This document shows, piece by piece, positions 1-57,210 of a stretch of DNA of 64,000 nt. Source of the stretch: an uncultured Bacilli bacterium (GTDB lineage Bacteria; Bacillota_I; Bacilli_A; RFN20; CAG-826); NCBI GenBank assembly GCA_944375905.1, contig CALWAS010000027.1, positions 57,679 to 121,678 of the forward strand, given 5' to 3'. Under the pieces are notes generated by a model. The model saw only the letters and a list, made by a program, of their open reading frames with translations. It had not been told where the DNA came from and did no database searches. Position 1 is the stretch's first letter. Each line of letters opens with the position of its first letter. The position numbers were made by a program, and so were the translations under genes.

Positions 1-1979
1 TTGATGTACTCCACCGAGATATCCTGGTCTTTGTCGAGCAAAGTGATAATGAGCTGAGAGCAATTTTGCGGCAAAACTTGGCATGCCCGAGTGACGTTGT
101 CCTTATCGAAGTTTGAGAAAGGCGCGTCAAGAACTAGCGGGAATTCTTCAGATTCATCGTCATCGGCATCCCTCAAAACGTCGTTCCGATGGCGGGCCAT
201 ATAAACCAGACTTGAAACGAAAGCAAGGTTTTTCATGCCGCTCTCGGCTTGAGATAAAACTTTCTTGTCTCTCGCCCCCATGGCGTAATAGGGCGTGACA
301 TTGAAATTGGCTTCCCCAATCTTAAAAGTCACAGTCTTATCTCCGCTTAGGTATTGATAGACCTCATTAACGCGTTTTTGCAGATTTTCCACAACCGATT
401 TTCGAGCCGACTCGCGCCTAGATTCTGCAAATTCCCTAACGTCGTCTAGACATTCGAGGCAAGCATTCAAATATTTATTTTTTTCGTTCGAAGCTTCAAA
501 ACTACTGATGTTCTTATTGATGCTGTCCAATTGTTTATCAATATCAGAAATGTCATGCTCAGACAGCCTTTTAATTGACTCGTTCCTGGCACCGATTAGC
601 GTGGAAAGCCGCATAACATCATCATTCCAGACAGACACATCGCCAGTAAAGTTTCTCAGTTTCTGGTCACATTCCTTTATCGTGTCCCTGCACGAATCGA
701 TGTCTTTCTGACATTTCCAAATCGTCCTAAGGTGCCGGCTAACATTGGAGGCACTGTTTTTTGCTACGGGCTCAAAGGCCAATAACTCGTTTTTTAGCCC
801 GCTGAGCAAACCGGAATTGTCATTTGGCGATACATGTTTTTCCAATTCTTTTAGTTTGTTATAGATGTCGCCGCGCCCTGGAATCGGGGTTCCACAAATG
901 CAAACGCCATTATTCAAAATTTCTTCAATGGTAGCTGCCGTCAAATGTTCATAATGAACTTGACCGTCTTTTTTAATCTCTTCAAGTTTGTCAATTATCC
1001 CGGTCGTTCTGACGGCCTTTGACGCGCCCCACAAAGCAAGGAAACCTACGGTTCCTAAATCGCCGCTTAGATCATTTAGCATATATTGCATTTCCGTCTC
1101 AATTGAATCTTGCAATCTTTCTAAGTCGCGTTCGGATTCACGCCTTTGGGTTTGCCATTGTCCGGCTTCCTTATGGGCTTCTATCTGCGCTTTTTTCTCA
1201 TCTCTTTGCGCCTCAAGGAGATCTCGATCCTTTATTGTGTCAGCAAGCTGTTTTTCAAAATCTTGTTTTTTTGATACTAGTTGCTCCCTTTTGGCTTCAA
1301 GCTGTGCTTGATTCTCGAAGGAAGTTGAATCTTTTTGTTTTTCGAAGTCCTTCCAAATGGGCCCGTTTTTCTTGAGGAGATTAATAAGTTGGTCGCGCGC
1401 ATCGAAATTCATGATCCGGCTGACCGATTTTCCCAGCTCTCTTTTATCGGCAACCTCATCGATACGATTAGCCTCGCCGTCGTAAAAGAAATAATCTTTC
1501 AGGTCTTGTGGGAGAATGCTTTCTATTTCGCTTGCAGCTCTGAAATTATCAAGGATGTCAGCTTTTCCGCTCGGGTCTGATTTAAGATTGCGGAAAATGA
1601 TTTGAGTCGGCTTAGGAGAAGTCTTTTCCAGACTAGGTCCCCCGCTGCCACGTGAAACGAAATTGTATTTTTGGCTGGTACTAACAAGGTAATGGTAAGC
1701 ACCATGCTCAAGTTCAATAGTTACCTTAGCCTCGTATTGTTTGCCTAGGGCCGAGATTGGCAATGAATTTAAAACGTCTTTGTTAAAAAGGTCATCGCCT
1801 TTACCGAAAATCTCGCTATCGGGGTAAAGGCACCAGATGATTGACTTGACGAAAGTCGTTTTCCCTACGTGGTTAGAACCATATATTACGGTGACGTTCT
1901 TGCCATCTTTGCTCGAGAGGTCGACAGTTTGATCTTTGAATTGTCGAAAATTACTATAGGAAATTGACAAGATTTTCAT
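1..1979 (-). CDS. DndD/SspC-like SMC-family ATPase, truncated by the window edge (C-terminus lies beyond position 1)
   Basis: Minus-strand ORF starting at the ATG at 1979-1977, with GGAG 9 nt upstream. It stays open to position 1 and is absent from the ORF track only because no stop lies in the window. My by-eye translation gives an N-terminus MKILSISYSNFRQFKDQTVDLSSKDGKNVTVIYGSNHVGKTTFVKSII, which is an RecF/SMC/DndD-type N-terminal Walker A. Long coiled-coil-like K/E/Q-rich middle segments follow. The C-terminus reads FPLVLDAPFSNFD, a Walker B/D-loop. The AT-rich codon usage matches the island. Confidence 0.6.
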   Translation of the reverse strand, partial: MKILSISYSNFRQFKDQTVDLSSKDGKNVTVIYGSNHVGKTTFVKSIIWCLYPDSEIFGKGDDLFNKDVLNSLPISALGKQYEAKVTIELEHGAYHYLVSTSQKYNFVSRGSGGPSLEKTSPKPTQIIFRNLKSDPSGKADILDNFRAASEIESILPQDLKDYFFYDGEANRIDEVADKRELGKSVSRIMNFDARDQLINLLKKNGPIWKDFEKQKDSTSFENQAQLEAKREQLVSKKQDFEKQLADTIKDRDLLEAQRDEKKAQIEAHKEAGQWQTQRRESERDLERLQDSIETEMQYMLNDLSGDLGTVGFLALWGASKAVRTTGIIDKLEEIKKDGQVHYEHLTAATIEEILNNGVCICGTPIPGRGDIYNKLKELEKHVSPNDNSGLLSGLKNELLAFEPVAKNSASNVSRHLRTIWKCQKDIDSCRDTIKECDQKLRNFTGDVSVWNDDVMRLSTLIGARNESIKRLSEHDISDIDKQLDSINKNISSFEASNEKNKYLNACLECLDDVREFAESRRESARKSVVENLQKRVNEVYQYLSGDKTVTFKIGEANFNVTPYYAMGARDKKVLSQAESGMKNLAFVSSLVYMARHRNDVLRDADDDESEEFPLVLDAPFSNFDKDNVTRACQVLPQNCSQLIITLLDKDQDISVEYI

Positions 1980-2126
1980 CTTTAGTGCTCCCCAGAACTC
2001 TCCCGAACGGTTTTTTCTATCATTTTCTCGAAGTCGGAGCTAAGCGATTTAACTTCGCCACGCTGGGCCTGCACTTTCATGATCTTCCGAAGGAAATCCT
2101 GATAGAGTGCAGAAACCATCTCGTTA

Positions 2127-4295
2127 TCAATACCCATTGTCGCCAGAATCCTCCCAAAGCGAGACCTGATCTAAGCGATAAGCTTCCATGATTTGGCTTC
2201 GCAAGGCCTCGCTATCAGATGCATTGTCTGCTTCGTTTGCAAATTCTTCAACCCTTTGCAATTCGCGCTTTGCCAATCCCTGCTCAAGGCGCATTGCATC
2301 ATCATCTAAAAACTTGAGTTGTGAAAGGGGCCGAGTGATTGTCACGAAATCGTAAATTTCTGCAATTCGTTTGCCACTGCGGTAATCTTGCCGAAGCAGC
2401 CTGCCTCTCCTTTGAATGTACTCTTTGGGGTTAGTCGTCGAGGCCAAAATGAACGCCGTCCTGATGCACGGGATATCGATTCCTTCGTCAAGACAGCGAA
2501 TGGCAACGAGAGTGTCGATTGTTCCGTCTTTGAAAAGCGAAATCAACTTCTCCCTTTCTTCGGGATCCTCTTGGGCCGTAAAGCGGAAAGCTTTCATTTT
2601 GTGCACGCCATTTAGCAATTGAAGGACGTCACTTATTTGCTTTTGGGACTCGCCTGGGTCTCGGTCCTTATAAGTAACCGACCCGCAATAAACAAGGTTG
2701 AACTTTGATTTTTCATAATTGGTTATCGCCTCATCAAGCGCGCCTAGCTTGTTTCTTGCCCCCGCTACCACAATTGACCGCTTGATCAAATCACGGCGAA
2801 GCTGATTATCTTCATCTGCAGAAAGATAGGATGCCTCAGCCATTATTTTCTTTGTTAGTTTTAAATACTCATAACGCTCATCATCGTCGAGAGCGACAAG
2901 AATTGGGTAATAGCGATAGTGGCATAGAACGCCATTTTCTATTGCCTCTGGAAGCGTATATCGGATAAGGCACGTGCCAAAGAAATTAAGAATCTTATCC
3001 GTACCGAGAGCATCGTGATGACGAGTTATCGTCGCCGAAAGTCCGAGTCGGTAGCGAAAGTCGATCGAAAGGACCTGGCTAGTTTGAGAGGCTCCCAGAT
3101 TATGGCACTCGTCAGCTAGGAAAATCGTCCGCTTTTTAACCGTCTCCAAAATGCTGAGAACCTCAGGCTTGATGAGACTTGATGAAGTAATGATAGCGGC
3201 TTCGAACTTGCTGTAGCCGCCTTTTACGGCCGCTGCGTATTCTTGAAAGCTAGTGAGCCATGTACGCGAATTTCCGCAGCAAATCAGCGGTTTGATCTTA
3301 TATTTTTCGCAATTTTCATTCCACTGATAAACAAGGTTGATCTGAGGAACAACGATAAGCAGGAAGAACGATTTTGAGCTCTTTTCAGGATCTTCGACTA
3401 GCGAAACGACGGCTCCCAATGATGTAATTGTCTTGCCTGTCCCGGTAGCCATATCGAAATAGCCCCTGTAATCATTTTCCTTCCACGCTTGGATGGCTTT
3501 TCTTTGATAGTCGTAATATTTAATGTTTGCGTTTCCCAGACGCGTGTTTAATAGGCGTTGCTTGAACTTCTGCCTCGCATACTCGCGATCAAGATTTTCA
3601 AGTTCTTCTTTGCTAAAGGAGTCTTTGTAAACAAGGATTTTTTCCTTTACTGCTTCCGGAAATTCGATGATTTGCATCCTACTATCGTGATTTGTCCATT
3701 TTCGATTGAACAATATCTTGTGTTCTTGGCATCTAGTCGATGTGTCAGAACCATTCCAAGAGCAGAAAACTTCGGTCGACTCGCGGTTCAAAAGCAAGCC
3801 ATTTGCAGTCAGATTTCCCGAAGAATGGGCAAGGACAACATTTCCAACGCAGTCGGTAAATATATTGATTTTTTCATGAAGCATTTGTTCAGGGCCACCC
3901 GAATTAAGAACGCCGATCTTGATGTCGAGAATGCCATGGCTCACTAGATAAGACAGAAGAGAGAGATACCCTTTTTCAAATTCGTCGCGAGGATCTTCCC
4001 AGGTTGTAAGAAGACGCTTTTCAATTGTTTCCCTAAGTTCATAGCCCTTCGAAATGGCCTCGGCTTCATCCTCCTTCAAGGCCGTCGAAAGGATGAGGTG
4101 AATACGACCATAGTTGTTCGAAATCATTGGGCAAAGCCCGGCCGCTAGCATTTTGAGACTGACGGCCGAGAAGAATCCGGAGATCCCTTCATAGAGCACC
4201 GACTCTTTAAGACACGGAACATAAAGGTCGTCGATGACATCGTCGACCTGCGTCTCATAATGCATTCTCAACTCAAGATCCGATAATGCCATCAA
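2127..4295 (-). CDS. Superfamily-2 DECH-box helicase (ResIII/SNF2-like) with a roughly 270-aa N-terminal domain; candidate restriction/effector component
   Basis: 722-aa ORF. Helicase motifs are Walker A DMATGTGKT, motif II FLADECHNLG, motif III LSATITR and motif VI QRRGRLLR. The N-terminal region contains HEKINIFTD...SSGNLT, a degenerate HxK(x5)D...SGN arrangement reminiscent of PLD/HKD nuclease motifs but with non-canonical spacing. A 4-bp ATGA overlap joins it to the upstream cysteine desulfurase gene. Confidence 0.75.
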   Translation of the reverse strand: MMALSDLELRMHYETQVDDVIDDLYVPCLKESVLYEGISGFFSAVSLKMLAAGLCPMISNNYGRIHLILSTALKEDEAEAISKGYELRETIEKRLLTTWEDPRDEFEKGYLSLLSYLVSHGILDIKIGVLNSGGPEQMLHEKINIFTDCVGNVVLAHSSGNLTANGLLLNRESTEVFCSWNGSDTSTRCQEHKILFNRKWTNHDSRMQIIEFPEAVKEKILVYKDSFSKEELENLDREYARQKFKQRLLNTRLGNANIKYYDYQRKAIQAWKENDYRGYFDMATGTGKTITSLGAVVSLVEDPEKSSKSFFLLIVVPQINLVYQWNENCEKYKIKPLICCGNSRTWLTSFQEYAAAVKGGYSKFEAAIITSSSLIKPEVLSILETVKKRTIFLADECHNLGASQTSQVLSIDFRYRLGLSATITRHHDALGTDKILNFFGTCLIRYTLPEAIENGVLCHYRYYPILVALDDDERYEYLKLTKKIMAEASYLSADEDNQLRRDLIKRSIVVAGARNKLGALDEAITNYEKSKFNLVYCGSVTYKDRDPGESQKQISDVLQLLNGVHKMKAFRFTAQEDPEEREKLISLFKDGTIDTLVAIRCLDEGIDIPCIRTAFILASTTNPKEYIQRRGRLLRQDYRSGKRIAEIYDFVTITRPLSQLKFLDDDAMRLEQGLAKRELQRVEEFANEADNASDSEALRSQIMEAYRLDQVSLWEDSGDNGY

Positions 4296-5419
4296 AAAGC
4301 CTCCACCGCCTTTAATAATGTAATGATATCTTCTTCATTATTAAACACGCCGAGACTAACGCGAACCGTGCCTCCAAAGACCTTCGACCCAATGAAATCA
4401 TGTATGAGCGGCGCACAATGATAGCCAGTCCGCACCGAAATCCCTTCGTTAGCTAGAATCGTCCCTATATCGTCGGACTTATAGCCATCAATGGCAAAGG
4501 AAACAATGCCGTTGTATTTGCAATTTGGTGCAAAGAATAAATGCGTTTTTGGCATCTTACTTAAGCCGTCAATAAGCATCTTTGTTTCTTTTGAAATGGT
4601 TTCGGCTATCTTTGAACGGTTTTCTCTAACAAATCTTGCGCCAGGTATCAAAGAGGCAATCGCCGAAACATTGCGGCTGCCCGCTTCATATCGATAGGGA
4701 AGATCAGCCGGCATTTCCGGATTCAAAGAATCAGATCCCGTGCCGCCGCATATGACAGGAGGCAAATCGCGGTCTCTCATAACGATGAAGCCCCCGACCC
4801 CAAAGCAGCCATAAAGCGTTTTGTGGCCCGCAAAGACAACATAATCCGCATCAGCTAGCCCGCACAACGGATGGATTCCGTAGGCCTGGGCAGCATCAAG
4901 GACATTCACTGAATCGTATTTTCTTCCCAAAGCGAAAATTGCCTCATGCGATATCCTCGCCCCGGTAACGTTGGAAATAGCGCTGAGGAAGATGGCTAGA
5001 GGGTGATCTAGAACGAACATTCGTTCAATTGTTGGAAGATCGGGTTCCCAGTTTTCATCGAAGGGAAGAACCTTGACCTTTACGCCATCATCCTTCAGCC
5101 TTTCTAAGGGCCGGATGATCGCGTTATGCTCGAAGGGAGAAATATAAATCGTGTCGCCCTCCACCGCACCAAGTCCAAGAATGAGGATATTCAAGGCTTC
5201 GGTCGCCGACGAAGCAAAAACGACATGGGACGGATCGATGCCGTTCTCTAGAGAGGCAACGGCCACTCTGGCCTCTTCCACGATGTCGCTTGCCGCTTGG
5301 CTCTCTTTCGATTCGCCACGGCCAGCGTTGAAAGCCAACGTCCGGTTTATCTTGTCGACAAAGTCATAAACTTCTTTCGGTTTGGGAAAAGTCGTTGCTG
5401 CATTGTCCAAATAGATCAT
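4292..5419 (-). CDS. Cysteine desulfurase, class V aminotransferase family (DndA/SspA/IscS-like)
   Basis: 375 aa. N-terminal MIYLDNAATTFPKP is the NifS/IscS signature start. The PLP-lysine motif is FAGHKTLYG, with a glycine-rich loop containing Cys (VICGGTGSD). Start and stop overlap both neighbours, placing it inside the operon. Confidence 0.8.
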   Translation of the reverse strand: MIYLDNAATTFPKPKEVYDFVDKINRTLAFNAGRGESKESQAASDIVEEARVAVASLENGIDPSHVVFASSATEALNILILGLGAVEGDTIYISPFEHNAIIRPLERLKDDGVKVKVLPFDENWEPDLPTIERMFVLDHPLAIFLSAISNVTGARISHEAIFALGRKYDSVNVLDAAQAYGIHPLCGLADADYVVFAGHKTLYGCFGVGGFIVMRDRDLPPVICGGTGSDSLNPEMPADLPYRYEAGSRNVSAIASLIPGARFVRENRSKIAETISKETKMLIDGLSKMPKTHLFFAPNCKYNGIVSFAIDGYKSDDIGTILANEGISVRTGYHCAPLIHDFIGSKVFGGTVRVSLGVFNNEEDIITLLKAVEAF

Positions 5420-8400
5420 TTATCGCTCTCCTTCAAAAGATTGCCAAAGACGTAGAGCAAATCGTTTTTGGAAAGGGCTTGGTTGTATTGCGATAGGATT
5501 TCCCGGATCTGGTTCTCGACAATGTTGGATACTGGCGATAGCTTGGATTCATCGACTACCGATAGCATTTCGCTCGCCGCTCCGAAGGCAGATTTAGCTG
5601 TCTTAAATTTGTCTGAGACAAGATAAGCTAGGAACTGCTCGATCGTTTTGAAGAACATTTCCCGGTTTTTGCCGTTCCAATCAGAGAAATGCAAATCAAT
5701 GGCAGCAATAGAAAGCTCATCAATGAGGGTAGGATCAAAATGCGACTTAGATTCATAAATGGCCTTGGCGATTTGGTTGTACCGGAAATCCCCGACGCCT
5801 TCCTCAACGCTGTACCCGGCTTTCCTTTCGATGCCTTGGAGAATCGAGAGCAACGATCCTTTTTTGCCGGCGATGCCAGGCATCGAAAGAAGCCTTGTTG
5901 AAGTTGATTTCGCCAATTTTGTCTCCATCTCTTCGAAAGACTTCTTTTCTTTCTCTAGGGCGGAGAGGAGCTTATCGAGCCCAATGACCTTGAAATTTCG
6001 CGGCAGGAATTCAAAGAAGAAGTCATTGGGCGAAAGATCATACTTGGTGAGCTCGGCCAAAAAGGTTTCTTTCTCCTTGGAAATGACCATCGGAAATCCA
6101 GCGGCCGTCGCAGTTCGAACAACTTGAGGGAGATTCCGAAACCAGTTCTTAAGACAGTCGAGGGCCTTTTTCCCAGCGCTCCGACCGTCGGCCTCGGCTT
6201 TCCCGCCAAACAATGAAATGACACCGGTAATGAAATCGCTCCGCTCTTTGGCACCACGATCGATCTTAATCTTCCATTCATCAATTTTTGGAGAGGAGAT
6301 GGCCTTATTGATGCCAGCTGAAGAAAATTCCTCCTCTTTCTTCCCGAAATAGAGGCCGAAAGCCTTGTCATCGGCAACTCCAAGTCTTAGGACAGCTAGG
6401 GTAATGAAGAGCGGGATGACGCCCTGTCTTATGCCGTAAGGAGGCTCAATGAGCTTTTGAAGGATCGGCGACACGGAAACCATAATCGCATCCTTACCGT
6501 TCAGCATCCCTTCGACTATTTTGGTCGCGGCATTGATGCCATAAGGATCGCCTTCGGCTTTTGCTTTTTCAAAGAAAATACGATAAATGGTGTTTTCCGG
6601 GCTCGATTCGCTCGTTTCCTCAATGACAGCCCTCTGATTGTCCCCTTTCGTAAGGAGGATGTCGATCAGGCGATCGCGCGCTTTCGCGTAGTTTTTCGTC
6701 GGGTGATCGCGGTTAAGCAACTCGTTATTCACGATCGGGGTATCGGAATAAACCTTCTCGAAAACGCTGCTAAGGATTTCGCTCGCGGTTTTTCCACTGA
6801 AGTTGACTGAAGAAAAGAAGCACGATCCACTATCCTTGTACGCTTTGCCGATGACGGCTCTTATATCGGACTGCAAACGGCTTTTCATCACGTGAAGAGC
6901 TGCCTTGTCATTGTTGCTGAGGCCAGCATCGGTCTCCATTCGCTCATAAGCCTTCCATAAGGAAAGGGCGTGCTCCATGGCATCAAGAGGGAGAGAATTT
7001 GGAACTTGGACGATTATCTTTGGGTCATTGATTTCCTTGACCTTTTTCATGATTGAGTCAGGGCTTCCGCTTGCATCGAAGATCCTTACGATTATTCCGT
7101 CGTATGGCCACCCATAGAGATCCTTGAAAGAAGATAGAGCAAGGAAGGATTCAGAATCGATGTAAGTGATTCTTGCATACCTTGTCATTCGCTTTTGAAC
7201 GTTGTAAGCAAAAGAAGCGACATAGTCGTCCTTGAATATTTCCTTAAGGGCATCGACGGGAGAATAACGACGTAATTCCTTCCTGATTATTTTCTCGGCT
7301 CGGGCATTTATTTCTTTGCTTCCGACGAAAGCGAAATCAAGCCCCCCATCGAATCTGTTAACGCGTACGGCGCCTTCCTTCTCGAGCAAACTTATTTTGT
7401 CGAGTACCTCCTCAAGGGGCAAATCGAGAGCGAGAGCCAAGGTCTGGGCGTTTGCCTTAAGCTTTGTTGAAGGTTGGAGCATGAGGCAGACAGCCATGCC
7501 CTTAACAATCTTCTTGATCTCCGCATCATCATATTTCGAGCAAGTAGCATCACAGCTATAGGCTAGGTTTTTCAAACGATGGTCTGGGCTATCAAAAATC
7601 TGTTTTTCGAAGTAATCCCAAACCGAGTCGATGCCGATAAGATGCCCATTGTTATCCTGTTCGACGAGGGAACGTAGGCCATTGGGATCACTCCCATAAA
7701 TAAAAGTGAACAAGGTGCGCTCGTTCTGCGCAACCTCTTCGTTGATTCTAAGCAAGGCAAAAGTGCTCAATGGGTTTAGTGGGAAGACTAGAGAAGAAAG
7801 CTTTTCTGCATCGATGCCATCAGCAGCTTTGCTAAAGACGCCGAGACGATCGATTTGCCCGAAGTAGTCTTTATTTTTTTCAATATAATCTGCAAAGAAG
7901 GCATTGAAAGCCGAGAGCTTCTCAATGGCAAAGTTGATAAGCTCGGCGCTCTCTTTGAGCGCACGATCAAACTGGCGGAATACAAAGCGCCCTTCGACGG
8001 CCTGAAGAATTTCATTGACGCGATCGTCTTTGGAATAAAGGGAGGTCTTTTTGTGGGCTATGCAGCAAAAATGTATCGAGTAGTTACTATCGCTTCGATT
8101 GGAAAGCTCGGCAAAGTCCTGGATGAAACGAAGCTCGTCGCCGTGGTTTTCAGGGCTTGATTCAAGAAACTTAGAAAATTCGTCAAAGACAACAAAAAGC
8201 CCATCGAACCCGCGCTTTTTAAGTGAAGAGGCCACCGCTTTGTACGTACCGATGGGGTCAGAAGCCAGAATCGGGTTGAACTCACCGCCAGATGTAATGC
8301 AACGATAAATATCACCAAATCGTTTAAAGGCTTGCTCCGAATAAGAACGGAGATCATTGATAAGACGATCGACCTCGCCTTTTTTCAGGTTGCACTGGTC

Positions 8401-8913
8401 AAACTTAGTAGATGAAATGATCCTGTCTTTCTTCCAAGACGAAAGAAGGCGGGCGGCTTCCTCGTAAGCGGTATATGGAACGAGGTCTTCACAATGAGCC
8501 AGCATGAGCCCCGAGCGCAGCCCATTCATAAAGGCTTGCTTCATGCTGCCAAAAGAAGGGCTAATTACGATTGGTATGTAACTTTTGTGATTTTTGATCT
8601 TAGACACAAGATCTGGATCAACCACTTCGACTCTAGAGATGAACTTGTCTAGAGATTTCGCGCTCGCCGCGCCGAACAGAATTTGAAGAATAGCCAGCAG
8701 AAGAAACGATTTTCCTTTGCCATACGCCCCAATAAGCTGGGTCGATTGATTCCGGTTATAGGCCACGTCATCTAGGTAGTCCCCGAGAATCTCGCAAACA
8801 TCAGAAGTTGGGAGATATTCCGTTAGTTTATCAGCCGAGTCTAGGTCAAACTCGATGTTTATTGACGGCTCAAATCGCTCATTCACTCGAATAAGATCAG
8901 TTAGCCTAGTCAT
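5416..8913 (-). CDS. Large P-loop NTPase, BrxC/PglY-like in size and architecture (hypothesis)
   Basis: 1165 aa. N-terminal Walker A GAYGKGKSFLL and Walker B-like LFVVFDEF, followed by roughly 900 aa with no other recognisable motifs. The size (about 1200 aa) and the N-terminal ATPase followed by a long helical body resemble BREX BrxC/PglY-type ATPases. Its start overlaps the stop of the 296-aa ORF by 8 bp, and its stop overlaps the start of the cysteine desulfurase by 4 bp. Confidence 0.5.
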   Translation of the reverse strand: MTRLTDLIRVNERFEPSINIEFDLDSADKLTEYLPTSDVCEILGDYLDDVAYNRNQSTQLIGAYGKGKSFLLLAILQILFGAASAKSLDKFISRVEVVDPDLVSKIKNHKSYIPIVISPSFGSMKQAFMNGLRSGLMLAHCEDLVPYTAYEEAARLLSSWKKDRIISSTKFDQCNLKKGEVDRLINDLRSYSEQAFKRFGDIYRCITSGGEFNPILASDPIGTYKAVASSLKKRGFDGLFVVFDEFSKFLESSPENHGDELRFIQDFAELSNRSDSNYSIHFCCIAHKKTSLYSKDDRVNEILQAVEGRFVFRQFDRALKESAELINFAIEKLSAFNAFFADYIEKNKDYFGQIDRLGVFSKAADGIDAEKLSSLVFPLNPLSTFALLRINEEVAQNERTLFTFIYGSDPNGLRSLVEQDNNGHLIGIDSVWDYFEKQIFDSPDHRLKNLAYSCDATCSKYDDAEIKKIVKGMAVCLMLQPSTKLKANAQTLALALDLPLEEVLDKISLLEKEGAVRVNRFDGGLDFAFVGSKEINARAEKIIRKELRRYSPVDALKEIFKDDYVASFAYNVQKRMTRYARITYIDSESFLALSSFKDLYGWPYDGIIVRIFDASGSPDSIMKKVKEINDPKIIVQVPNSLPLDAMEHALSLWKAYERMETDAGLSNNDKAALHVMKSRLQSDIRAVIGKAYKDSGSCFFSSVNFSGKTASEILSSVFEKVYSDTPIVNNELLNRDHPTKNYAKARDRLIDILLTKGDNQRAVIEETSESSPENTIYRIFFEKAKAEGDPYGINAATKIVEGMLNGKDAIMVSVSPILQKLIEPPYGIRQGVIPLFITLAVLRLGVADDKAFGLYFGKKEEEFSSAGINKAISSPKIDEWKIKIDRGAKERSDFITGVISLFGGKAEADGRSAGKKALDCLKNWFRNLPQVVRTATAAGFPMVISKEKETFLAELTKYDLSPNDFFFEFLPRNFKVIGLDKLLSALEKEKKSFEEMETKLAKSTSTRLLSMPGIAGKKGSLLSILQGIERKAGYSVEEGVGDFRYNQIAKAIYESKSHFDPTLIDELSIAAIDLHFSDWNGKNREMFFKTIEQFLAYLVSDKFKTAKSAFGAASEMLSVVDESKLSPVSNIVENQIREILSQYNQALSKNDLLYVFGNLLKESDK

Positions 8914-9796
8914 GGATGCGAACCTCCATCTTGTGGACGATATTCCTTAGATCGATGCTTTCAGCCGGCATTTCTACAACATTGAGTCCTGCCGTCCTAA
9001 CAACATTGATCAAATTCATCGACTTAAGACGATCGAGGACGGTCATAAATTCATCACGATTCAAATTGAATAGGCGGCCGGGTCCGTTTTTTGCCTCTAG
9101 AAGAGAATCAATCGTATCCTCGTGCGACTTAGATGCTTTCAAAAGGAGGTAATAAAAAACGTATGGCTCAATCTTGTCGAGATCGATCGGCTTTTTTTGA
9201 TAAAGCTGCGTTTCCTTTCTTTCTAGAAGCGAAAAGGCGGAAAGAGGACAATTAAGGTTGTTTTCGGGATCATCGATGGGATCCGATACATAGGTTCTAA
9301 CCAAAACGCTAAGATCGTCGCTCACGATCGATTCCTGTGGGGATTCCCCAAAGTGCTCAGCGCACCACTCCCCAAACGAACGAATGAACGTCTCTTTGCT
9401 AAATGATTCATGGGGCAGCATTTCATTGAAGAGGAAATAGAAAAGAGGCGCCTTGGATTCGGAGGCCACAATGTTCGCATGGATCAGCTGCCAGCTGCCG
9501 GCTTTGAGAAGATAAGGATCAGCTTCGAAAATGATGCTTGCTTCCTCTGAAAGTTCAGGCTTTAGCTTTTTGTTGACGTCCAAAAGACCGGCACATTCCA
9601 TCCAATAGCGAAGAGCCGATACCATGTTCGACCCTATTCCGAGGCAGACGGGGCCATCGCTTTTCGAAAATACATTGAAGCGCCCATTGGCGTTAATAAG
9701 CTCACGATAGGCCTTGCTTAACCAACCTTCGCGAATGGAAAAACTCTGGCTAAGCTTGAATTGGGGCTTGGTCATCCGTGATTCATTGTTTTCCAT
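8906..9796 (-). CDS. Hypothetical protein (296 aa), translationally coupled between the DndC-like and BrxC-like genes
   Basis: ORF with AT-rich island codon usage. It overlaps the DndC-like stop by 14 bp and the downstream start by 8 bp. I recognise no catalytic motif; it lacks the DGQHR/ParB-like signature of DndB/SspB. Confidence 0.55.
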   Translation of the reverse strand: MENNESRMTKPQFKLSQSFSIREGWLSKAYRELINANGRFNVFSKSDGPVCLGIGSNMVSALRYWMECAGLLDVNKKLKPELSEEASIIFEADPYLLKAGSWQLIHANIVASESKAPLFYFLFNEMLPHESFSKETFIRSFGEWCAEHFGESPQESIVSDDLSVLVRTYVSDPIDDPENNLNCPLSAFSLLERKETQLYQKKPIDLDKIEPYVFYYLLLKASKSHEDTIDSLLEAKNGPGRLFNLNRDEFMTVLDRLKSMNLINVVRTAGLNVVEMPAESIDLRNIVHKMEVRIHD

Positions 9797-11537
9797 TTTT
9801 GATCCTCAGAACTTTCTTCATGTAGCAACCGCTGTCGAAGTGTGAAACGCACTCAAGACAATGCCGGCACTTGTCGGGATTAATCGTATATATGACAGAA
9901 TCGAGAGAAGCATCGCCTTTCTTTGAATTCGAGACATGCAGCGCTCCAAAACGGCATACAGACTCGCAAGCGCCACAAGCAAGGCAGGTTTGGAACTTGG
10001 TAATCTGTGAGTTAATCAAAAGCTCTCCAAGATGACGGTTTTTGAATCGGCCTTTATTACTTAAAATCGCAACCCTGAGAGTCGTGCTTCCTTTAATTCC
10101 CCTAAGCTGAAGAATCGGCTCTCTTGTCACTGAATCAAGGACATATGCCTCCCCCAGTTTCGGATTCCCCATCGAGAAATCGAGTATCCCAAATGGTTTG
10201 AAAAGGGTATAAAGCATATCGTCAATCGGCCGTGACAACTCAAAATTTATGGCATTCTCGTCAAAAGCACACGGCTTAAACGTAACGATGGTGTTTTTGC
10301 CTAAAGCAAGCCCGTTTCCGCCTTGTCTTGCCTTCCACTTGCCAGTATCGACGTATTCTTTCCAATCAGGTTTTCCAACGCTCTTGGCAAAATCATAAAG
10401 AAGATTTTGAAAATCCCCATAGAGTTCCGGCATATATATCGACGACAGAAAGCCCGACCAAATGCTGTTATTTGGACAACACCAACATCCGACACGAGAA
10501 AAGCCCTGACGGTAGGCGTGGTTGAAATCGAGTTTGTTCGAAATGATGTAAAGCCAGTCGTCAAAGGAAGTCCAATCGATGATTGGGGAGCAGACAACCT
10601 GTTTTGTTATCTTCGAATCAGCACTGTCGCGGGAATAATTGGATCGCGAAACCGATTCCATCCTGCGTACGCCGAAAAATGTCAAAATCCGCGGCGTCTT
10701 GGCAAAAAGAGACTCAATAGTCTTGGTAATGGCACCTGTCTTGAAAACGGTACAGCACCACCGCATGACCCTTGATGGCGGGCCTATCTTGCGACACAGA
10801 TCATTGAAATCCTGATCTTTGTTTTTTGCCTCAATTAGCGGCGTCCCCGGATAACGCTTCCTAAAGCGGGCGACGTATTCATGAGTCGTTGGGTATTCAA
10901 GCGTCGTATCTCCATAAATATGAACGATGGTTTCGCTTCCTAAGGACTTCATGGCAAGATGGCTCACTACCGTCGAATCCTTGCCTCCGGAGAAACTCAC
11001 GAAAGAATTCGCAGCCGTATAGCCCCTTGCCCGCTCTAATATGTAAGCAGTTGCTTCATCTGTAATTTCGGCCAGTCTTGAACGATTCACGCGGCAAAAT
11101 GCCGCGATTTCCTCTGAATCAAGGTACCCATCGACATATGGCTGATTAGCAGATGCAAATTCGGCAAGTTTTTTTCGTATCTCGCTCGGATCTCTCTTTA
11201 TCATCTGACTTTGGGAAAACTTAACGATCTGCCCGTCTATGACGTAAGATCCCGACCCGATAGCCCACACAGAGTGCCCTGCATATTTCATGGGAACATC
11301 GTTTAGGACCTCGATCAATAAACGTTCTTCGGGAAAAACGGGTCGAAGGTCGGTCCCTATCCGATGGCATTTTCCATGGCATTCCGGACAAGTATCGTAA
11401 AAGGACGGCGCGTTGCATTTAGAACACCAAAAAATCGAAGCCGAAAAGACCCTTGCCCGGCTTCCGCAAACAGGGCAGGTACTAGTTTCGCACAGCGTTC
11501 CCTGACACTCTTTTCGTTCGCATTTATATATAATCAT
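9783..11537 (-). CDS. DndC/SspD-like PAPS-reductase-family PP-loop ATP pyrophosphatase with N-terminal Zn-ribbons and a C-terminal 2x[4Fe-4S] ferredoxin-like domain
   Basis: 584 aa. The PP-loop SFSGGKDST is followed by MRWCCTVFK, the DndC/CysH-like cysteine region. The N-terminus has four CxxC pairs (CERKECQGTLCETSTCPVCGS...CSKCNAP...CPECHGKC). The C-terminus reads CLACGACESVCRFGAL...CRHCLECVSHFDSGC, the classic CxxCxxCxxxC + CxxCxxC ferredoxin pattern. It is the first gene after a roughly 325-bp AT-rich promoter-like gap. Confidence 0.8.
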   Translation of the reverse strand: MIIYKCERKECQGTLCETSTCPVCGSRARVFSASIFWCSKCNAPSFYDTCPECHGKCHRIGTDLRPVFPEERLLIEVLNDVPMKYAGHSVWAIGSGSYVIDGQIVKFSQSQMIKRDPSEIRKKLAEFASANQPYVDGYLDSEEIAAFCRVNRSRLAEITDEATAYILERARGYTAANSFVSFSGGKDSTVVSHLAMKSLGSETIVHIYGDTTLEYPTTHEYVARFRKRYPGTPLIEAKNKDQDFNDLCRKIGPPSRVMRWCCTVFKTGAITKTIESLFAKTPRILTFFGVRRMESVSRSNYSRDSADSKITKQVVCSPIIDWTSFDDWLYIISNKLDFNHAYRQGFSRVGCWCCPNNSIWSGFLSSIYMPELYGDFQNLLYDFAKSVGKPDWKEYVDTGKWKARQGGNGLALGKNTIVTFKPCAFDENAINFELSRPIDDMLYTLFKPFGILDFSMGNPKLGEAYVLDSVTREPILQLRGIKGSTTLRVAILSNKGRFKNRHLGELLINSQITKFQTCLACGACESVCRFGALHVSNSKKGDASLDSVIYTINPDKCRHCLECVSHFDSGCYMKKVLRIKNGKQ

Positions 11538-11862
11538 GTGCGTTCAGAAAGATTGTACCATGTACTTATTGGGACAGTCTTATCGATGCTCCACAAAAGA
11601 GCCAAACACAATCTGTAGGAACCTTTTATTTCTGACATCATTTTGTCTAAATTTCTTGATATTTCGTCAGTCAACGAAGTAATTTACTCGATTATGTCTT
11701 AATCATATAAAATATGTATTCGTAAGTTAAAAAACTGATTGTATGTTCCATTTTGCTTGCCAGGAATAAAAGCCATGCGCGATAACTTAATAAAGAAGGT
11801 TGCCGTTTTTCTTGCTGAACAACAGTTTCGCTGACACTTCTATAGCTGGACGTTGTGAAAAG

Positions 11863-13284
11863 TCAGGCATCGTTGCCATTTAGCGAAAGGTAGAATCTCG
11901 AATCCGAATAAATCGCTCCCGTATCCCTTATCAAAAAGGTCTTTGACAAATATGAACGGACTATTCCAACCAGAAGGTATTTGTTCCATTCATAGTCCAA
12001 TTGGGGCAGATTCCAAAAACTGAAATATTCGTCAACTCTGATTTCTTTTTTCTCTCCAATCTCCGATTTTAAACCTCTGGTTATGGATTCTATCGTTTCT
12101 TCGCTTAACTGAAATTTGCTTTTAGAAACGATGCGATTGGAATCCACTTCCACATAATCGGGCGCAGTAATGTCCAAAAGCCATTTCCTGCTGTCTATAC
12201 CGTTGATATGGATCCTTTGGCAAAATTTATTTATCTCATCGAAAGAAATGATTTCTTTGCTATAAACGAATTCTATGATCAAATCGTCTCCGGTAAGTTT
12301 GATCCGCTTAGTTGCTGAAACATATGGCTCCTTAAAGAAATATTTTCTTCCATAGTAACAAGCGGCAAGAAAATACAAGCCCTGCTCATTTGCAAAAGAT
12401 CCTAATTCTTTCAAGAAAGTCGGATGGGCGATAGCAAAAGACGAATACAACTTACCTCTTGCAACAACTCCCACTGGGCTGCTTGAAATGATTTTCCGTA
12501 ACGTAGAGCCGATGCAAATAATAGCTGCTTCGCTGATTTTTTCATCGGCAAGGCGACGATAAGAAGAACGATTGCGCAAAAAGTCCTCATAGTAAGAAAG
12601 ATATCTCTCAACCAGTTCGATCTTCTTTTGATCGAAGAATTCACCCTTTGCTTTGGCTATTGTTTTGTCCCTTAAGGAACAAAAATTGTTGAGAGAGTCC
12701 AGAAGGAAGAAGTCGGTAAATGACTTGCTGACCTTTCGAAGCAATCCGTTGATTATCTGGAAACTGTCAATGACAGCCTTAACTGATGCCGGGGAAAACC
12801 GCCTGATGGTCAATGCTTGGACAAATTCATCCTTTGTTTCCTTGGCGAAATGAGCCTTAGCTTCCTCGGGTTCCGCGACCGGATGGCAATGATAAAGGAA
12901 AAAGCACTCCTTTAAATCGACGCCATAGGCTTCCAAAAGACATTGAATGTTCATCATCGAATGGCTAGACGTGTGGTTGGTGTCGAGATAAAGGTCGCGA
13001 AACGGAGAATAGTTGGTCCTTCGAGTCCGGGAGAAAACTACGCACTTGCTCCACTTGTAACGGATGGAGAGCAGTTCTTCATCGCTTTTTGGATTGCGGC
13101 GGTCTAATTCGGAAAGAATACCAAGTGTCATTCGGTTCCAGCTTCCGGCACAGACCAAAATATCACGGTAGCTAAACAAATAAGGGGTTGTGTTTTCCAA
13201 ACACGGCAGCGGATTCGTCATGTCGAATTCGTAGTAGCGCCTACCATCGATATATCGAATTTTATATTTCTCTTCTATTCCCAC
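11863..13284 (-). CDS. Hypothetical protein (473 aa), first gene of the AT-rich island inside the boundary
   Basis: Long ORF with island-like AT-rich codon usage and no recognisable motifs. It has the same orientation as the modification operon and lies directly inside the GC-content transition. Confidence 0.5.
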   Translation of the reverse strand: MGIEEKYKIRYIDGRRYYEFDMTNPLPCLENTTPYLFSYRDILVCAGSWNRMTLGILSELDRRNPKSDEELLSIRYKWSKCVVFSRTRRTNYSPFRDLYLDTNHTSSHSMMNIQCLLEAYGVDLKECFFLYHCHPVAEPEEAKAHFAKETKDEFVQALTIRRFSPASVKAVIDSFQIINGLLRKVSKSFTDFFLLDSLNNFCSLRDKTIAKAKGEFFDQKKIELVERYLSYYEDFLRNRSSYRRLADEKISEAAIICIGSTLRKIISSSPVGVVARGKLYSSFAIAHPTFLKELGSFANEQGLYFLAACYYGRKYFFKEPYVSATKRIKLTGDDLIIEFVYSKEIISFDEINKFCQRIHINGIDSRKWLLDITAPDYVEVDSNRIVSKSKFQLSEETIESITRGLKSEIGEKKEIRVDEYFSFWNLPQLDYEWNKYLLVGIVRSYLSKTFLIRDTGAIYSDSRFYLSLNGNDA

Positions 13285-13411
13285 GTTTTGTAAATGATAA
13301 CGCAGATCCCGACCGACGAATATTTATTTACAAATTGAACAAACTGAGTCCCCTTCTCCTTCACTTTGCCATAAAAAACTGTCTCTAAAATTGTCTTATG
13401 CAATATGGAAA

Positions 13412-13452
13412 CCGCAGCAAAAAGCCCGGCTTCGATAAGAAACCGGGCTCTC
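13412..13452. terminator. Bidirectional rho-independent terminator at the island/host junction
   Basis: AAAAAGCCCGGCTTCGATAAGAAACCGGGCTCTCTTTTT has a GCCCGG/CCGGGC stem flanked by an A-run and a T-run. On the minus strand it lies just downstream of the stop of the 770-aa lipoprotein gene. Confidence 0.5.
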
Positions 13453-13466
13453 TTTTTCGTTTTACC

Positions 13467-17371: not shown

Positions 17372-17576
17372 GGGGTGTTCCTTTCTTATCAGAAATGTAA
17401 CGCCTCAGAGCCATTTGTCACTAGAAAATTTAATGAATTTCCAATATCAGCCTATTTGATATTTACAGTGTAAAGATTACCAAATGGCGATTAACACCGA
17501 AGACTTTTGATATATCGATGCAAAATCGCCTGAATCGAAAGCAAAAAAGAGATGTCGAGACAAGACAAATGTTACT

Positions 17577-18311
17577 TCAAGCGAGCTTTTTGCGGAGTTC
17601 GTACATGAGGATGCCGCCGGCAACTCCGACGTTGAGGGAATCGATGTTCCCCATCTCGATCCGGACCCGGGCATCGCTCAACGAGCGGATCTCATCGCTG
17701 ATCCCATGGGATTCGCTTCCGAGGACGAGGGCAAGTTTCTCTTTTAGAAGGAAAGAAGACGGGGGAAGCGAGGAAGAAAGGTCGCTAGCAAGGAGGAAAT
17801 AGCCGTCCTTTTTAAGGGCGTCCGCCGCTTCCTTCCGCATAAGGAAATGGAGGGAAAGCTGGAAGATGGCCCCTTGGCTCGCCATGAGGGCCTTCGAGGA
17901 ATAGGGCGTGGCCGTCCCGGGAAGGAAGACGACGTCGAAGTAGGAAAAGGCGAGGGCCGTCCTCAAGATGGTGCCGAGGTTCCCGGGATCGCCCACCCCA
18001 TCGAGGACAAGGACGCGGCCCGAGGAAAAAGGAACTTCCTTCTTTCTTTCGCAAACCCCGAGTATCCCTTCCGGATGGACGAGGGAAGTTACCTTCTTGT
18101 AGGCCCGCTCGCTTAGTAGTGTCGCCTTCGTCTCGGGATACGGCGGCTCGTAGGTCGAATAGATCTCAAGCAAGGAGCCATGGCGATGCGCCTCCTCGAC
18201 GAGGTGCTTGCCCTCGACGAGGAAAAGGGCGCCTTTCCCGTCCTTCAGGCGGACGAGGGACTTCACCTTCGGGTTGTCCGGGCTATCGATGAATGGAAGC
18301 GTCTTTCCCAT
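17577..18311 (-). CDS. rlmB: TrmH/SpoU-family RNA 2'-O-methyltransferase (RlmB-like)
   Basis: 244 aa. SpoU motifs LVLDGVGDPGNLGTILRTALAF and LVLGSESHGISDE, with an IGMxGxxxSLNV-like C-terminal motif (IEMGNIDSLNVGVAGGI). Confidence 0.8.
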   Translation of the reverse strand: MGKTLPFIDSPDNPKVKSLVRLKDGKGALFLVEGKHLVEEAHRHGSLLEIYSTYEPPYPETKATLLSERAYKKVTSLVHPEGILGVCERKKEVPFSSGRVLVLDGVGDPGNLGTILRTALAFSYFDVVFLPGTATPYSSKALMASQGAIFQLSLHFLMRKEAADALKKDGYFLLASDLSSSLPPSSFLLKEKLALVLGSESHGISDEIRSLSDARVRIEMGNIDSLNVGVAGGILMYELRKKLA

Positions 18312-21044: not shown

Positions 21045-21073
21045 GGAGAGATTGTAACGAGCGAAAAGATGGC

Positions 21074-57127: not shown

Positions 57128-57128
57128 G

Positions 57129-57170
57129 GAGAAGCGAACGGAGGCCCCTTTTGGGCCTCCTTTTCTTTTT
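57129..57170 (+). terminator. Rho-independent terminator
   Basis: GGAGGCCCCTTTTGGGCCTCC followed by TTTTCTTTTTTT, directly after the lipoprotein stop. Confidence 0.55.
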
Positions 57171-57210
57171 TTCCTTTGCGAAAGGCCGTCCCAAAGGCAA
57201 ACTATCGACG

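What the first reader, a model, noticed from the sequence alone, without database searches (positions are those of the whole stretch)
2127..4295. DECH-box helicase with a possible degenerate HKD (PLD-like) nuclease domain: candidate restriction effector
The helicase motifs are clear (GTGKT, DECH, SAT, QRRGRLLR). The roughly 270-aa N-terminal domain contains HEK(x5)D...SSGNLT, close to but not matching the canonical PLD HxK(x4)D(x6)GSxN spacing. PLD-helicase fusions are typical restriction effectors of modification-dependent systems. If real, this is the restriction arm paired with the sulfur-modification arm.
Basis: partly seen in the sequence, partly recalled or inferred. Interest (0 to 1): 0.6.

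Follow-up and report, generated by a model that had tools for sequence, protein, structure and literature searches.

The report
PbeA-type PLD nuclease–helicase defence protein
The gene encodes an ordinary member of the already described PbeA family, a probable DNA-cutting (PLD/HKD) domain fused to a DNA motor, that sits in one operon with DNA sulfur-modification genes as the likely attack arm of an anti-virus system; the only unusual point is that it is paired with the Ssp type of sulfur-modification genes, not the Dnd type.

Summary
Its N-terminal ~220 residues are predicted with high confidence to adopt a PLD fold. The best structural matches are SauUSI, BfiI, NucT, Zucchini and Nuc.

The HKD motif is not degenerate. 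H140, K142, S159, N161, N170 and E172 are invariant in homologues down to 24% identity. The odd spacing, HxK(x5)D(x10)SxN, is a 4-residue hairpin insertion shared by the whole family.

The protein is a full-length match to PbeA (PADLOC E=1e-203), the HKD-nuclease/SF2-helicase component of the published PbeABCD (CxC ABC-ATPase-centred) phosphorothioate defence module. It is followed by a 45-aa PbeB-like ORF and a CxC-type PbeC that is cut by the window start. It is translationally coupled upstream to sspD-sspB-sspC-sspA.

However, this is a known family, nuclease activity has never been shown for it, and Pbe acts against unmodified DNA rather than modified DNA.

The one moderately new point is the pairing. 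All Ssp-coupled PbeA proteins form one clade, found in gut/rumen Firmicutes and Methanobrevibacter. I found no paper describing this pairing.

The parts
2127..4295 (-). pbeA ORF (722 aa from TTG 4295; probable true start ATG 4292; stop codon 2127-2129)
   Evidence: PADLOC PbeA PDLC02707 E=1e-203, covering aa 4-695 of the protein and 2-668 of the 672-position model.
3630..4295 (-). N-terminal single-HKD PLD-fold domain (aa 1-222)
   Evidence: AF2 pLDDT 89.9. Foldseek top hits SauUSI, BfiI, NucT, Zucchini, NgoAVII, Tdp1, Nuc. PLDc_2 E=0.022. NucT and Zucchini by profile.
3807..3878 (-). HKD motif block H140-E-K142-x5-D148-x10-S159-G-N161-L-T; the conserved N170 and E172 lie just downstream of it
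   Evidence: Positions. Invariance.
3528..3629 (-). Helical linker between the PLD domain and the motor (aa 223-256)
   Evidence: Secondary structure of the full-length model.
2928..3527 (-). SF2 helicase RecA-like lobe 1 (aa 257-456), with motif I GTGKT (3429-3443), motif II DECH (3102-3113) and motif III SAT (3030-3038)
   Evidence: Pfam ResIII aa 258-425, E=2e-20. Motif positions. Invariance.
2331..2927 (-). SF2 helicase RecA-like lobe 2 (aa 457-655), with a helical insert at aa 471-527 and motif VI QRRGRLLR (2391-2414)
   Evidence: Pfam Helicase_C aa 553-635. Closest solved sequences are archaeal XPB/Rad25, E=1e-21. Model.
2130..2330 (-). Conserved C-terminal helical tail (aa 656-722; E678, R681, F685 and N691 invariant) with an acidic end; no target-recognition domain
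   Evidence: No DUF3427 or other Pfam hit.
1982..2119 (-). 45-aa ORF in the pbeB position (small, fast-evolving protein)
   Evidence: Translation. Aligns weakly (20-34% identity) with the 49-55-aa ORFs at the same position in five related loci. No family hit.
3..1979 (-). [quoted passage not shown] The N-terminal 659 aa lie in the window; about 20 C-terminal residues are cut off by the window start.
   Evidence: PADLOC PbeC E=1.5e-73. Walker A and the G-x-C360-x-C362-G zinc-hook motif are invariant.
4292..5419 (-). sspA/dndA-like cysteine desulfurase; its stop codon overlaps the pbeA start
   Evidence: Aminotran_5 E=5e-66. PADLOC SspA E=1e-33, DndA E=4.5e-33.
5416..8913 (-). sspC (BrxC-like P-loop ATPase, 1165 aa)
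   Evidence: PADLOC SspC E=3e-72.
8906..9796 (-). sspB (DUF4007)
   Evidence: Pfam DUF4007 E=4e-61. PADLOC SspB E=1e-42.
9783..11537 (-). sspD of the BrxP type: PAPS-reductase domain plus a C-terminal 4Fe-4S ferredoxin-like region, not fused to DUF4007
   Evidence: PAPS_reduct E=1.5e-33 and Fer4. PADLOC BrxP E=4e-77, SspD E=2e-12.

Best explanation
The ORF is pbeA, the HKD(PLD)-nuclease/SF2-translocase subunit of a PbeABCD-type module (also called the CxC ABC-ATPase-centred system). Here it is fused into one operon with an Ssp-type DNA phosphorothioation module: sspD-sspB-sspC-sspA-pbeA-pbeB-pbeC, with pbeD lying beyond the window.

What is shown:
- Family membership.
- A PLD fold carrying a complete, invariant H/K/D/S/N/E residue set.
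- Intact helicase motifs I, II, III and VI.
- An overlapping operon structure.
- Co-inheritance of this PbeA clade with the Ssp genes.

What is inferred:
- SspABCD marks host DNA with phosphorothioate.
- PbeC, a Rad50-like zinc-hook ABC ATPase, scans DNA together with the DndE-like PbeD.
- On DNA lacking the mark, PbeA is engaged and translocates with its XPB-like motor using ATP.
- Because it has only one HKD half-site per chain, PbeA must dimerise (as Nuc, BfiI and SauUSI do) to form one active site that nicks or cuts the invading DNA.
- The small PbeB acts as a regulator.
For: - PADLOC PbeA models match the full length: E=1e-203, 7e-200 and 2e-123. The best NCBIfam hit is TIGR04095, 'DNA phosphorothioation system restriction enzyme' (468 bits).
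- PLD fold: AF2 pLDDT 89.9; Foldseek matches are PLD superfamily, with SauUSI first. For the full-length model the top hit is again SauUSI (E=4e-23 over 725 columns), followed by XPB.
- Invariant H140/K142/D148/S159/N161/N170/E172 and helicase motifs.
- The N-domain family has 2,610 cluster representatives. The domain is almost always at the N-terminus (within the first ~50 residues in all but one of the 150 best matches), and most complete proteins are about 700 aa.
- Neighbours: a PbeB-like ORF and PbeC with an invariant CxC motif; sspDBCA lies upstream with overlapping stop and start codons.
- The same collinear cassette occurs in the closest homologues and in 12 GTDB species representatives. 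All Ssp-coupled PbeA proteins form one clade in a neighbour-joining tree.
- Literature: PbeABCD protects against virus SNJ1 about 10^4-fold and depends on phosphorothioate (PMC6459918). PbeA was re-annotated as an HKD endoDNase + SF2 helicase, PbeC as a CxC ABC ATPase and PbeD as a DndE cognate (PMC10853773).
Against: - No nuclease activity has been demonstrated for any PbeA.
- In the only experimental system, viral DNA stayed intact on Southern blots, and a pbeA deletion kept low-level resistance (PMC6459918).
- This protein falls below the curated cut-offs of Pfam PLDc_2 (15.1 vs 27 bits) and TIGR04095 (468 vs 600 bits).
- pbeD is not in the window.
- The tested system was Dnd-coupled, not Ssp-coupled, so the functional link to Ssp rests on operon structure and co-inheritance only.
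- Dimerisation and the order of events are inference.
- The tree has no support values.
Confidence: 0.62

Rival explanations
1. PbeA is a non-cutting motor. It uses ATP to translocate, remodel or block replication of unmodified DNA, and the HKD domain serves only for DNA or phosphate/phosphorothioate binding or for dimerisation.
For: Xiong et al. (PMC6459918, read) found that SNJ1 DNA replication was blocked without visible cleavage or degradation. They also found that a pbeA deletion kept weak resistance, and they proposed a translocation or looping role.
Against: The full catalytic-type set (H, K, S, N, N, E) is invariant across homologues down to 24% identity. That is the pattern expected for an active site, not for a scaffold. 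Nicking or limited cleavage could escape a Southern blot.
Confidence: 0.2
2. The module is an abortive-infection device. PbeB holds PbeA in check; a viral trigger releases it, and PbeA cuts host DNA, killing the infected cell.
For: This was proposed as an alternative by the authors of PMC10853773 (read). A small, fast-evolving protein is encoded right after pbeA here and in all relatives.
Against: In the tested system, phosphorothioate-modified virus escaped restriction, which fits self/non-self marking better than suicide (PMC6459918). The tight coupling to a modification module is also more typical of restriction-modification logic.
Confidence: 0.1
3. It is a stand-alone SauUSI-like type IV enzyme that attacks modified foreign DNA (the literal 'modification-dependent' reading).
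For: SauUSI is the best structural match for both the N-domain and the whole chain. There are weak PADLOC mREase_IV hits on the helicase C-lobe (E=7e-8).
Against: The protein ends about 85 residues after motif VI and has no DUF3427-type target-recognition domain. It is embedded in an operon with PbeB, PbeC and modification genes. The PbeA models score about 650 bits higher than the mREase_IV models.
Confidence: 0.04
4. The HKD resemblance is chance or a dead relic, and the N-domain is not a PLD-type domain.
For: The Pfam PLDc_2 match is below its cut-off (E=0.022), and the spacing is non-canonical.
Against: Fold prediction and fold search, the profile hits to NucT and Zucchini, homologues that pass the Pfam cut-off with the same spacing, and invariance of the motif.
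Confidence: 0.02

Closest known systems
PbeA of DndCDEA-PbeABCD (Haloterrigena jeotgali A29; Xiong et al. 2019, PMC6459918), equivalent to the HKD endoDNase-SF2 helicase of CxC ABC-ATPase-centred systems (PMC10853773)
   Same: - Same architecture: PLD/HKD domain, then ResIII, then Helicase_C, about 700 aa.
- Same gene order: pbeA, then a small ORF, then a CxC ABC ATPase.
- Adjacent to DNA phosphorothioation genes.
- Full-length PADLOC PbeA match.
   Different: The modification partner is Ssp-type here (DUF4007 SspB, BrxC-like SspC, BrxP-like SspD), not DndCDE(A). The protein is only about 30% identical to a haloarchaeal relative (Natronomonas locus L055). pbeD is not visible in the window.
SauUSI (PDB 7clg), an ATP-dependent type IV restriction endonuclease of Staphylococcus aureus
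   Same: It is the only solved structure found here that matches both an N-terminal single-HKD PLD nuclease domain and an SF2 motor, and it is the top Foldseek hit for both the N-domain and the whole chain. It is a dimer whose PLD domains form one active site (my own knowledge of the published structure).
   Different: SauUSI is 953 aa, has a C-terminal target-recognition domain that reads modified cytosine, and acts alone on modified DNA. PbeA lacks that domain and is part of a multi-gene module. Sequence similarity is confined to the helicase C-lobe (E=1e-6).
Nuc / NucT / BfiI / Zucchini (single-HKD PLD-family nucleases)
   Same: Same fold and the same H, K, (D), S, N, E residues. One HKD per chain implies an active site formed by a dimer.
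   Different: PbeA has a 4-residue longer hairpin between the HxK...D strand and the GSxN strand. It also has about 125 residues ahead of the motif and a fused motor.
Archaeal XPB/Rad25 helicases (PDB 2fwr, 6p66, 5tnu)
   Same: They are the closest solved sequences to the motor, aa 254-652, E=1e-21. XPB is a dsDNA translocase that works with a partner nuclease, Bax1.
   Different: In PbeA the nuclease is fused in cis, and the context is defence, not repair.
SspABCD-SspE and SspABCD-SspFGH systems; type 4 BREX (BrxP, BrxC, PglZ, BrxL)
   Same: The upstream four genes match SspA, SspB, SspC and SspD models. SspD is of the BrxP-like form with a ferredoxin-like tail, and a subset of Ssp systems is reported to have this form (PMC12839542).
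   Different: There is no SspE, SspFGH, PglZ or BrxL in the island or in related loci. The effector side is PbeABCD instead.

Membership tests
PbeA (PADLOC) / HKD-SF2 helicase of CxC ABC-ATPase systems | Full-length match to PbeA profile models | tested here: met
   PDLC02707 E=1e-203, covering aa 4-695 of the protein and 2-668 of the 672-position model. Four further PbeA models score E=7e-200 to 2e-61.
PbeA (PADLOC) / HKD-SF2 helicase of CxC ABC-ATPase systems | Architecture: N-terminal HKD/PLD domain + SF2 helicase (ResIII + Helicase_C) | tested here: met
PbeA (PADLOC) / HKD-SF2 helicase of CxC ABC-ATPase systems | Followed by a small fast-evolving protein (PbeB) and a CxC zinc-hook ABC ATPase (PbeC) | tested here: met
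   45-aa ORF at 1982-2119. PbeC E=1.5e-73, with an invariant GxCxCG motif.
PbeA (PADLOC) / HKD-SF2 helicase of CxC ABC-ATPase systems | DndE-like PbeD encoded after PbeC | not testable with these tools
   The window ends inside pbeC. In relatives a 177-183-aa ORF follows PbeC, with only weak similarity to TIGR04062 dnd_assoc_4 (E=2.5e-4 to 3e-3). A Dnd-coupled relative (L017) has a clear TIGR04062 protein there.
PbeA (PADLOC) / HKD-SF2 helicase of CxC ABC-ATPase systems | Confers phosphorothioate-dependent protection against viruses | not testable with these tools
   Needs experiments. Shown only for the H. jeotgali system (PMC6459918).
NCBIfam TIGR04095 dnd_restrict_1 (equivalog domain) | Score at or above the curated cut-off of 600 bits | tested here: not met
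   468.1 bits, E=3e-140, covering aa 257-708 (the helicase part only). It is the best NCBIfam hit by far, but below the equivalog threshold.
PLD superfamily (HKD nucleases) | PLD alpha/beta fold | tested here: met
   AF2 pLDDT 89.9. 24 PDB matches at E<=0.001; every one I recognise is a PLD-superfamily or PLD-like protein.
PLD superfamily (HKD nucleases) | HxK...D...GSxN motif residues present and conserved | tested here: met
   H140, K142, D148, S159 and N161 (plus N170 and E172) are invariant. The spacing is x5/x10 instead of x4/x6, and this is family-wide.
PLD superfamily (HKD nucleases) | Pfam PLDc_2 gathering score (27 bits) | tested here: not met
   15.1 bits, E=0.022 for this protein. 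Homologues P0025 (27.9 bits) and P0109 (28.4 bits), which have the same motif spacing, pass.
PLD superfamily (HKD nucleases) | Phosphodiesterase activity through a covalent phospho-histidine intermediate | not testable with these tools
   Biochemistry is required.
SF2 helicase/translocase | Motifs I (GxGKT), II (DExH), III (SAT) and VI (QxxGRxxR) intact | tested here: met
   ResIII E=2e-20 and Helicase_C E=1e-15.
SauUSI-type type IV restriction enzyme | C-terminal modified-DNA target-recognition domain (DUF3427) after the helicase | tested here: not met
   No such Pfam hit. The chain ends with about 65 residues of helices after lobe 2.
SspABCD modification module (context) | Cysteine desulfurase + DUF4007 SspB + SspC ATPase + PAPS-reductase-type SspD in one cluster | tested here: met
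   The SspD here matches the BrxP model far better (E=4e-77) than the SspD model (E=2e-12).
Type 4 BREX (context) | PglZ and BrxL present | tested here: not met
   All ORFs of the low-GC island are accounted for, and none is PglZ or BrxL. None is present in related loci either.

The most novel reading that the evidence does not exclude
sspDBCA-pbeABCD is a distinct, so far undescribed hybrid phosphorothioate defence system. One monophyletic lineage of PbeA (with its PbeB, PbeC and PbeD) has become hard-wired to the Ssp (single-strand phosphorothioate, BrxC-like ATPase) modification machinery instead of Dnd. It has spread through gut and rumen Firmicutes and into Methanobrevibacter. If so, it would supply one of the 'missing' restriction partners for the ~84% of sspBCD clusters that lack sspE or sspFGH (PMC8092258). 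It would also mean that the CxC-ATPase/HKD-helicase module can read a differently placed phosphorothioate mark.
Probability: 0.4. Interest if true: 0.5.

Novelty: new member of a known kind. Interest (0 to 1): 0.3.

Why it matters
As a protein, this is a routine new member of the PbeA family, so the finding mainly confirms a correct reading of raw sequence. It has two modest uses.

First, the invariant H/K/S/N/E set and the confident PLD fold in a clade that Pfam does not flag strengthen the argument that PbeA proteins are real nucleases. This point is still disputed between the two papers that describe the system (PMC6459918 and PMC10853773).

Second, the conserved, clade-specific fusion of the Pbe module to Ssp-type modification genes gives a compact, testable eight-gene cassette. 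It could be used to ask how a Rad50-like ATPase plus a nuclease-helicase senses phosphorothioate. It may also explain part of the many 'orphan' sspBCD and 'solitary' pbeAC loci.

Tried and rejected
- An exact-sequence look-up of the protein in public assemblies found nothing. The nearest record is a 458-aa fragment at 98% identity (P0001).
- A genome scan with the single protein found no relative. The scan with alignment A1 worked.
- My first attempt to crop N-domains from alignment A2 failed, because MAFFT pushed the last residues of the short query to the far end. I redid the crop from A1.
- I tested whether the 473-aa ORF upstream of sspD (11863-13284) is the same gene as the conserved 375-429-aa ninth gene of related cassettes. 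BLASTP found no similarity. It has no Pfam, PADLOC or NCBIfam hit.
- The PbeD-position proteins of relatives gave no PADLOC or Pfam hit, no meaningful PDB sequence hit, and only weak TIGR04062 hits.
- The promoter and terminator scan of 1-14000 gave fewer sites than the shuffled controls, so nothing can be said about transcription signals.
- The Type-2 'BREX-related' HKD-helicase systems (DUF499 + methylase + DUF3780; PMC12839542) were considered and rejected, because none of those partner genes is present.
- The papers of Xiong et al. 2020 (Ssp) and Krishnan et al. 2020 (ABC ATPases) are not held in the library. I therefore cannot exclude that the Ssp-Pbe pairing is mentioned there.
Full report
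**The observation**

The finding's coordinates are exactly one ORF on the minus strand, 2127..4295, 722 aa from a TTG. Homologues begin 'MALSDL'. The second codon is an ATG at 4292 whose A is shared with the TGA of the upstream gene (TGATG), with GGAGG 8 nt upstream. The product is therefore most likely 721 aa and translationally coupled to its neighbour.

- GTGKT 285-289
- DECH 395-398
- SAT 420-422
- QRRGRLLR 628-635
- HEKINIFTD 140-148
- SSGNLT 158-163

Pfam gives ResIII (E=2e-20) and Helicase_C (E=1e-15), but no PLD family at E<0.01.

**Is the N-terminal domain PLD-like?**

Four independent tests say yes.

1. With the first 255 residues alone, the only Pfam family reported up to E=10 is PLDc_2. 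It scores E=0.022 and 15.1 bits against a cut-off of 27, and it falls on the HKD region. Homologues at about 38% identity with the same motif spacing pass the cut-off, at 27.9 and 28.4 bits.
2. A profile of 22 N-domains searched against all PDB sequences hits only NucT (E=0.011) and Zucchini/MitoPLD. The alignments sit on the motif and show a 4-residue insertion in PbeA.
3. An AlphaFold2 model of residues 1-255 is confident, with mean pLDDT 89.9 and pTM 0.86.
4. Foldseek against the PDB returns 24 matches at E<=0.001, including SauUSI (E=1e-7), BfiI, NucT, Zucchini, NgoAVII R-protein, Tdp1 and PLD3, with Nuc at E=1.1e-3. Every match I recognise is a PLD-superfamily or PLD-like protein.

**Is the motif degenerate?**

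No. In alignments of 30 and 56 homologues (31-55% identity), H140, K142, D148, S159, N161, N170 and E172 are invariant, as are the helicase motifs. In 12 further homologues at 24-35% identity, H, K, S, N, N and E remain invariant and D148 nearly so. These come from Natronomonas, a nanoarchaeon, Methanobrevibacter, Streptomyces, Nocardioides, Planctomycetes, Prevotella, Flavobacteriia and others.

The HxK(x5)D(x10)SxN spacing is the signature of the whole family. It reflects a longer hairpin between the two motif strands, not decay in this protein.

A search of the N-domain against 1.84 billion cluster representatives finds 2,610 relatives at E<=0.001 and 1,521 at E<=1e-10. The domain is almost always at the N-terminus: it starts within the first ~50 residues in all but one of the 150 best matches. 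Complete proteins are mostly 680-730 aa.

**What the protein is**

PADLOC's PbeA models match end to end (E=1e-203, 7e-200, 2e-123). The best NCBIfam model is TIGR04095, 'DNA phosphorothioation system restriction enzyme'. It scores 468 bits, below its 600-bit equivalog cut-off, and covers only the helicase part.

The full-length model has pLDDT 82.2 and pTM 0.58, so the domains are reliable but their mutual orientation is not. It shows:
- a PLD domain, aa 1-222
- a linker helix
- two RecA-like lobes, aa 257-456 and 457-655, with a helical insert
- a conserved helical tail

Its best PDB match is SauUSI over 725 columns (E=4e-23), then archaeal XPB. By sequence the motor is closest to XPB/Rad25 (E=1e-21). 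There is no C-terminal target-recognition domain.

**Surroundings**

The gene lies in a low-GC island, with genes at 42-48% GC against 58% for the rest of the window. All of the island's genes are on the minus strand, and their ends overlap or are 2-7 nt apart. In order:
- sspD, 9783-11537: PAPS reductase plus a 4Fe-4S tail; matches PADLOC BrxP at E=4e-77
- sspB, 8906-9796: DUF4007, E=4e-61
- sspC, 5416-8913: PADLOC SspC, E=3e-72
- sspA, 4292-5419: cysteine desulfurase
- pbeA
- a 45-aa ORF, 1982-2119
- pbeC, 3-1979: PADLOC PbeC, E=1.5e-73

PbeC has the invariant GxCxCG zinc-hook motif that defines the CxC ABC ATPases, and it lacks only about 20 C-terminal residues because the window starts there. 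The 45-aa ORF aligns weakly with the 49-55-aa ORFs in the same place in relatives, as expected for the fast-evolving PbeB. pbeD would lie beyond the window. PglZ, BrxL, SspE and SspFGH are absent.

**Related loci**

The closest homologues (40-55% identity) sit in the same collinear cassette: PAPS reductase, DUF4007, SspC, Aminotran_5, PbeA, a small ORF, PbeC, and a 177-183-aa protein. A 375-429-aa protein of unknown function often follows. The 177-183-aa proteins hit the PbeD-type model TIGR04062 only weakly.

A tblastn census finds the same cassette in 12 GTDB species representatives: Oribacterium, Erysipelotrichaceae, Lachnospiraceae, Ruminococcaceae, Oscillospiraceae, Solobacterium, Sporobacter, uncultured Clostridia and an unclassified bacterial MAG, and one Methanobrevibacter.

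In a neighbour-joining tree of 61 PbeA sequences, all Ssp-coupled proteins form a single clade. There are two exceptions inside it: one locus cut by a contig end, and a reduced Limosilactobacillus fermentum form (no support values). Sister clades are Dnd-coupled. For example, Nonomuraea locus L017 encodes PbeA, PbeC, TIGR04062, a dnd-associated methyltransferase, DndB and DndC.

**Literature**

Xiong et al. 2019 (PMC6459918) named PbeABCD in haloarchaea.
- They described PbeA as PLD + ResIII + helicase C.
- They showed about 10^4-fold protection against SNJ1 that depends on phosphorothioate.
- Phosphorothioate-modified virus escaped.
- There was no visible viral DNA cleavage, and pbeA was only partly required.
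- 320 of 553 pbeAC pairs lacked dndCD nearby.

Rakesh, Aravind and Krishnan 2024 (PMC10853773) equated the system with their CxC ABC-ATPase systems. They called PbeA an HKD endoDNase-SF2 helicase and argued that cleavage must occur.

Wang et al. 2021 (PMC8092258) reported that 83.9% of sspBCD clusters lack sspE or sspFGH, and they expected further restriction partners.

In the searchable library I found no paper describing an Ssp-Pbe pairing. Two relevant papers are not held.

**Mechanism**

Shown:
- family membership
- fold
- a conserved catalytic-type residue set
- an intact motor
- operon coupling
- co-inheritance with Ssp genes

Inferred:
- SspABCD phosphorothioates host DNA.
- PbeC and PbeD scan DNA.
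- On unmarked DNA, PbeA translocates with ATP.
- PbeA acts as a dimer whose two HKD half-sites make one active centre (by analogy with Nuc, BfiI and SauUSI), and it nicks or cuts the invader.
- PbeB regulates.

The main rival is a non-cutting motor or roadblock role, which the published Southern blot favours but residue conservation argues against. Abortive infection and a SauUSI-like stand-alone modification-dependent enzyme are less likely. A chance resemblance is excluded as far as computation allows.

**Verdict**

The object is a new member of a known family, not a new kind of system, and the motif is a family variant rather than a degenerate one. The moderately novel aspect is the clade-specific fusion to Ssp-type modification genes. 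Interest is 0.3.

Noticed in passing
window 60214-63432 (-): A 1072-aa protein matches the Wadjet JetC model end to end (PADLOC JetC1 E=1e-225). So a second, unrelated defence system probably lies at the far end of the window. Its JetA, JetB and JetD partners were not looked for.
   Followed up: no
window 56857-59718 (+): The C-terminal third of a 953-aa protein matches the PADLOC models mad3 (E=6e-59) and mad8 (E=1e-28) of the MADS candidate defence system. It lies next to the JetC gene.
   Followed up: no
window 11863-13284 (-): A 473-aa ORF sits at the edge of the low-GC island, upstream of sspD on the same strand. It has the lowest GC of the island (41.9%) and no Pfam, PADLOC or NCBIfam hit. 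It is absent from the related cassettes and is not similar to their ninth gene.
   Followed up: partly
loci L081 12700-13989, L083 14884-16071, L085 14870-15997: Several related Ssp-Pbe cassettes carry a ninth gene of 375-429 aa right after the PbeD-position gene. No library gives it a family match. If present here, it would lie beyond the window start.
   Followed up: partly
locus L087 (Limosilactobacillus fermentum-type, 7280-17624): This is a very abundant variant inside the Ssp-coupled PbeA clade. It has lost the PAPS reductase and DUF4007, keeping a 516-aa SspC-like remnant, a cysteine desulfurase and pbeABCD. It adds a 904-aa protein with RNA-polymerase-alpha-CTD-like repeats.
   Followed up: partly
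locus L009 (Methanobrevibacter sp. MAG, 2855-14400): The same collinear sspDBCA-pbeA...pbeC cassette occurs in a rumen methanogen. Its SspD is 59% identical to the window's, which suggests transfer between bacteria and archaea in the gut.
   Followed up: partly
window 9783-11537 (-): The SspD here is of the BrxP type (N-terminal zinc-ribbon-like cysteines, PAPS reductase, 4Fe-4S tail) but is not fused to DUF4007. It scores far better against the type 4 BREX BrxP model than against the SspD model, which places this module between Ssp and type 4 BREX (PMC12839542).
   Followed up: partly
window 13467-17371 and 18393-21188, 31100-33334: The flanking host DNA (58% GC) encodes serine-rich lipoproteins and BspA-type leucine-rich-repeat surface proteins, next to glycogen-metabolism genes. 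This fits a host-associated anaerobe. The organism was not identified.
   Followed up: no
window 2127-4295 vs NCBIfam TIGR04095: The curated model 'DNA phosphorothioation system restriction enzyme' covers only the helicase part (aa 257-708). This clade scores below its cut-off (468 vs 600 bits), so automatic annotation labels such proteins merely 'DEAD/DEAH box helicase'.
   Followed up: yes
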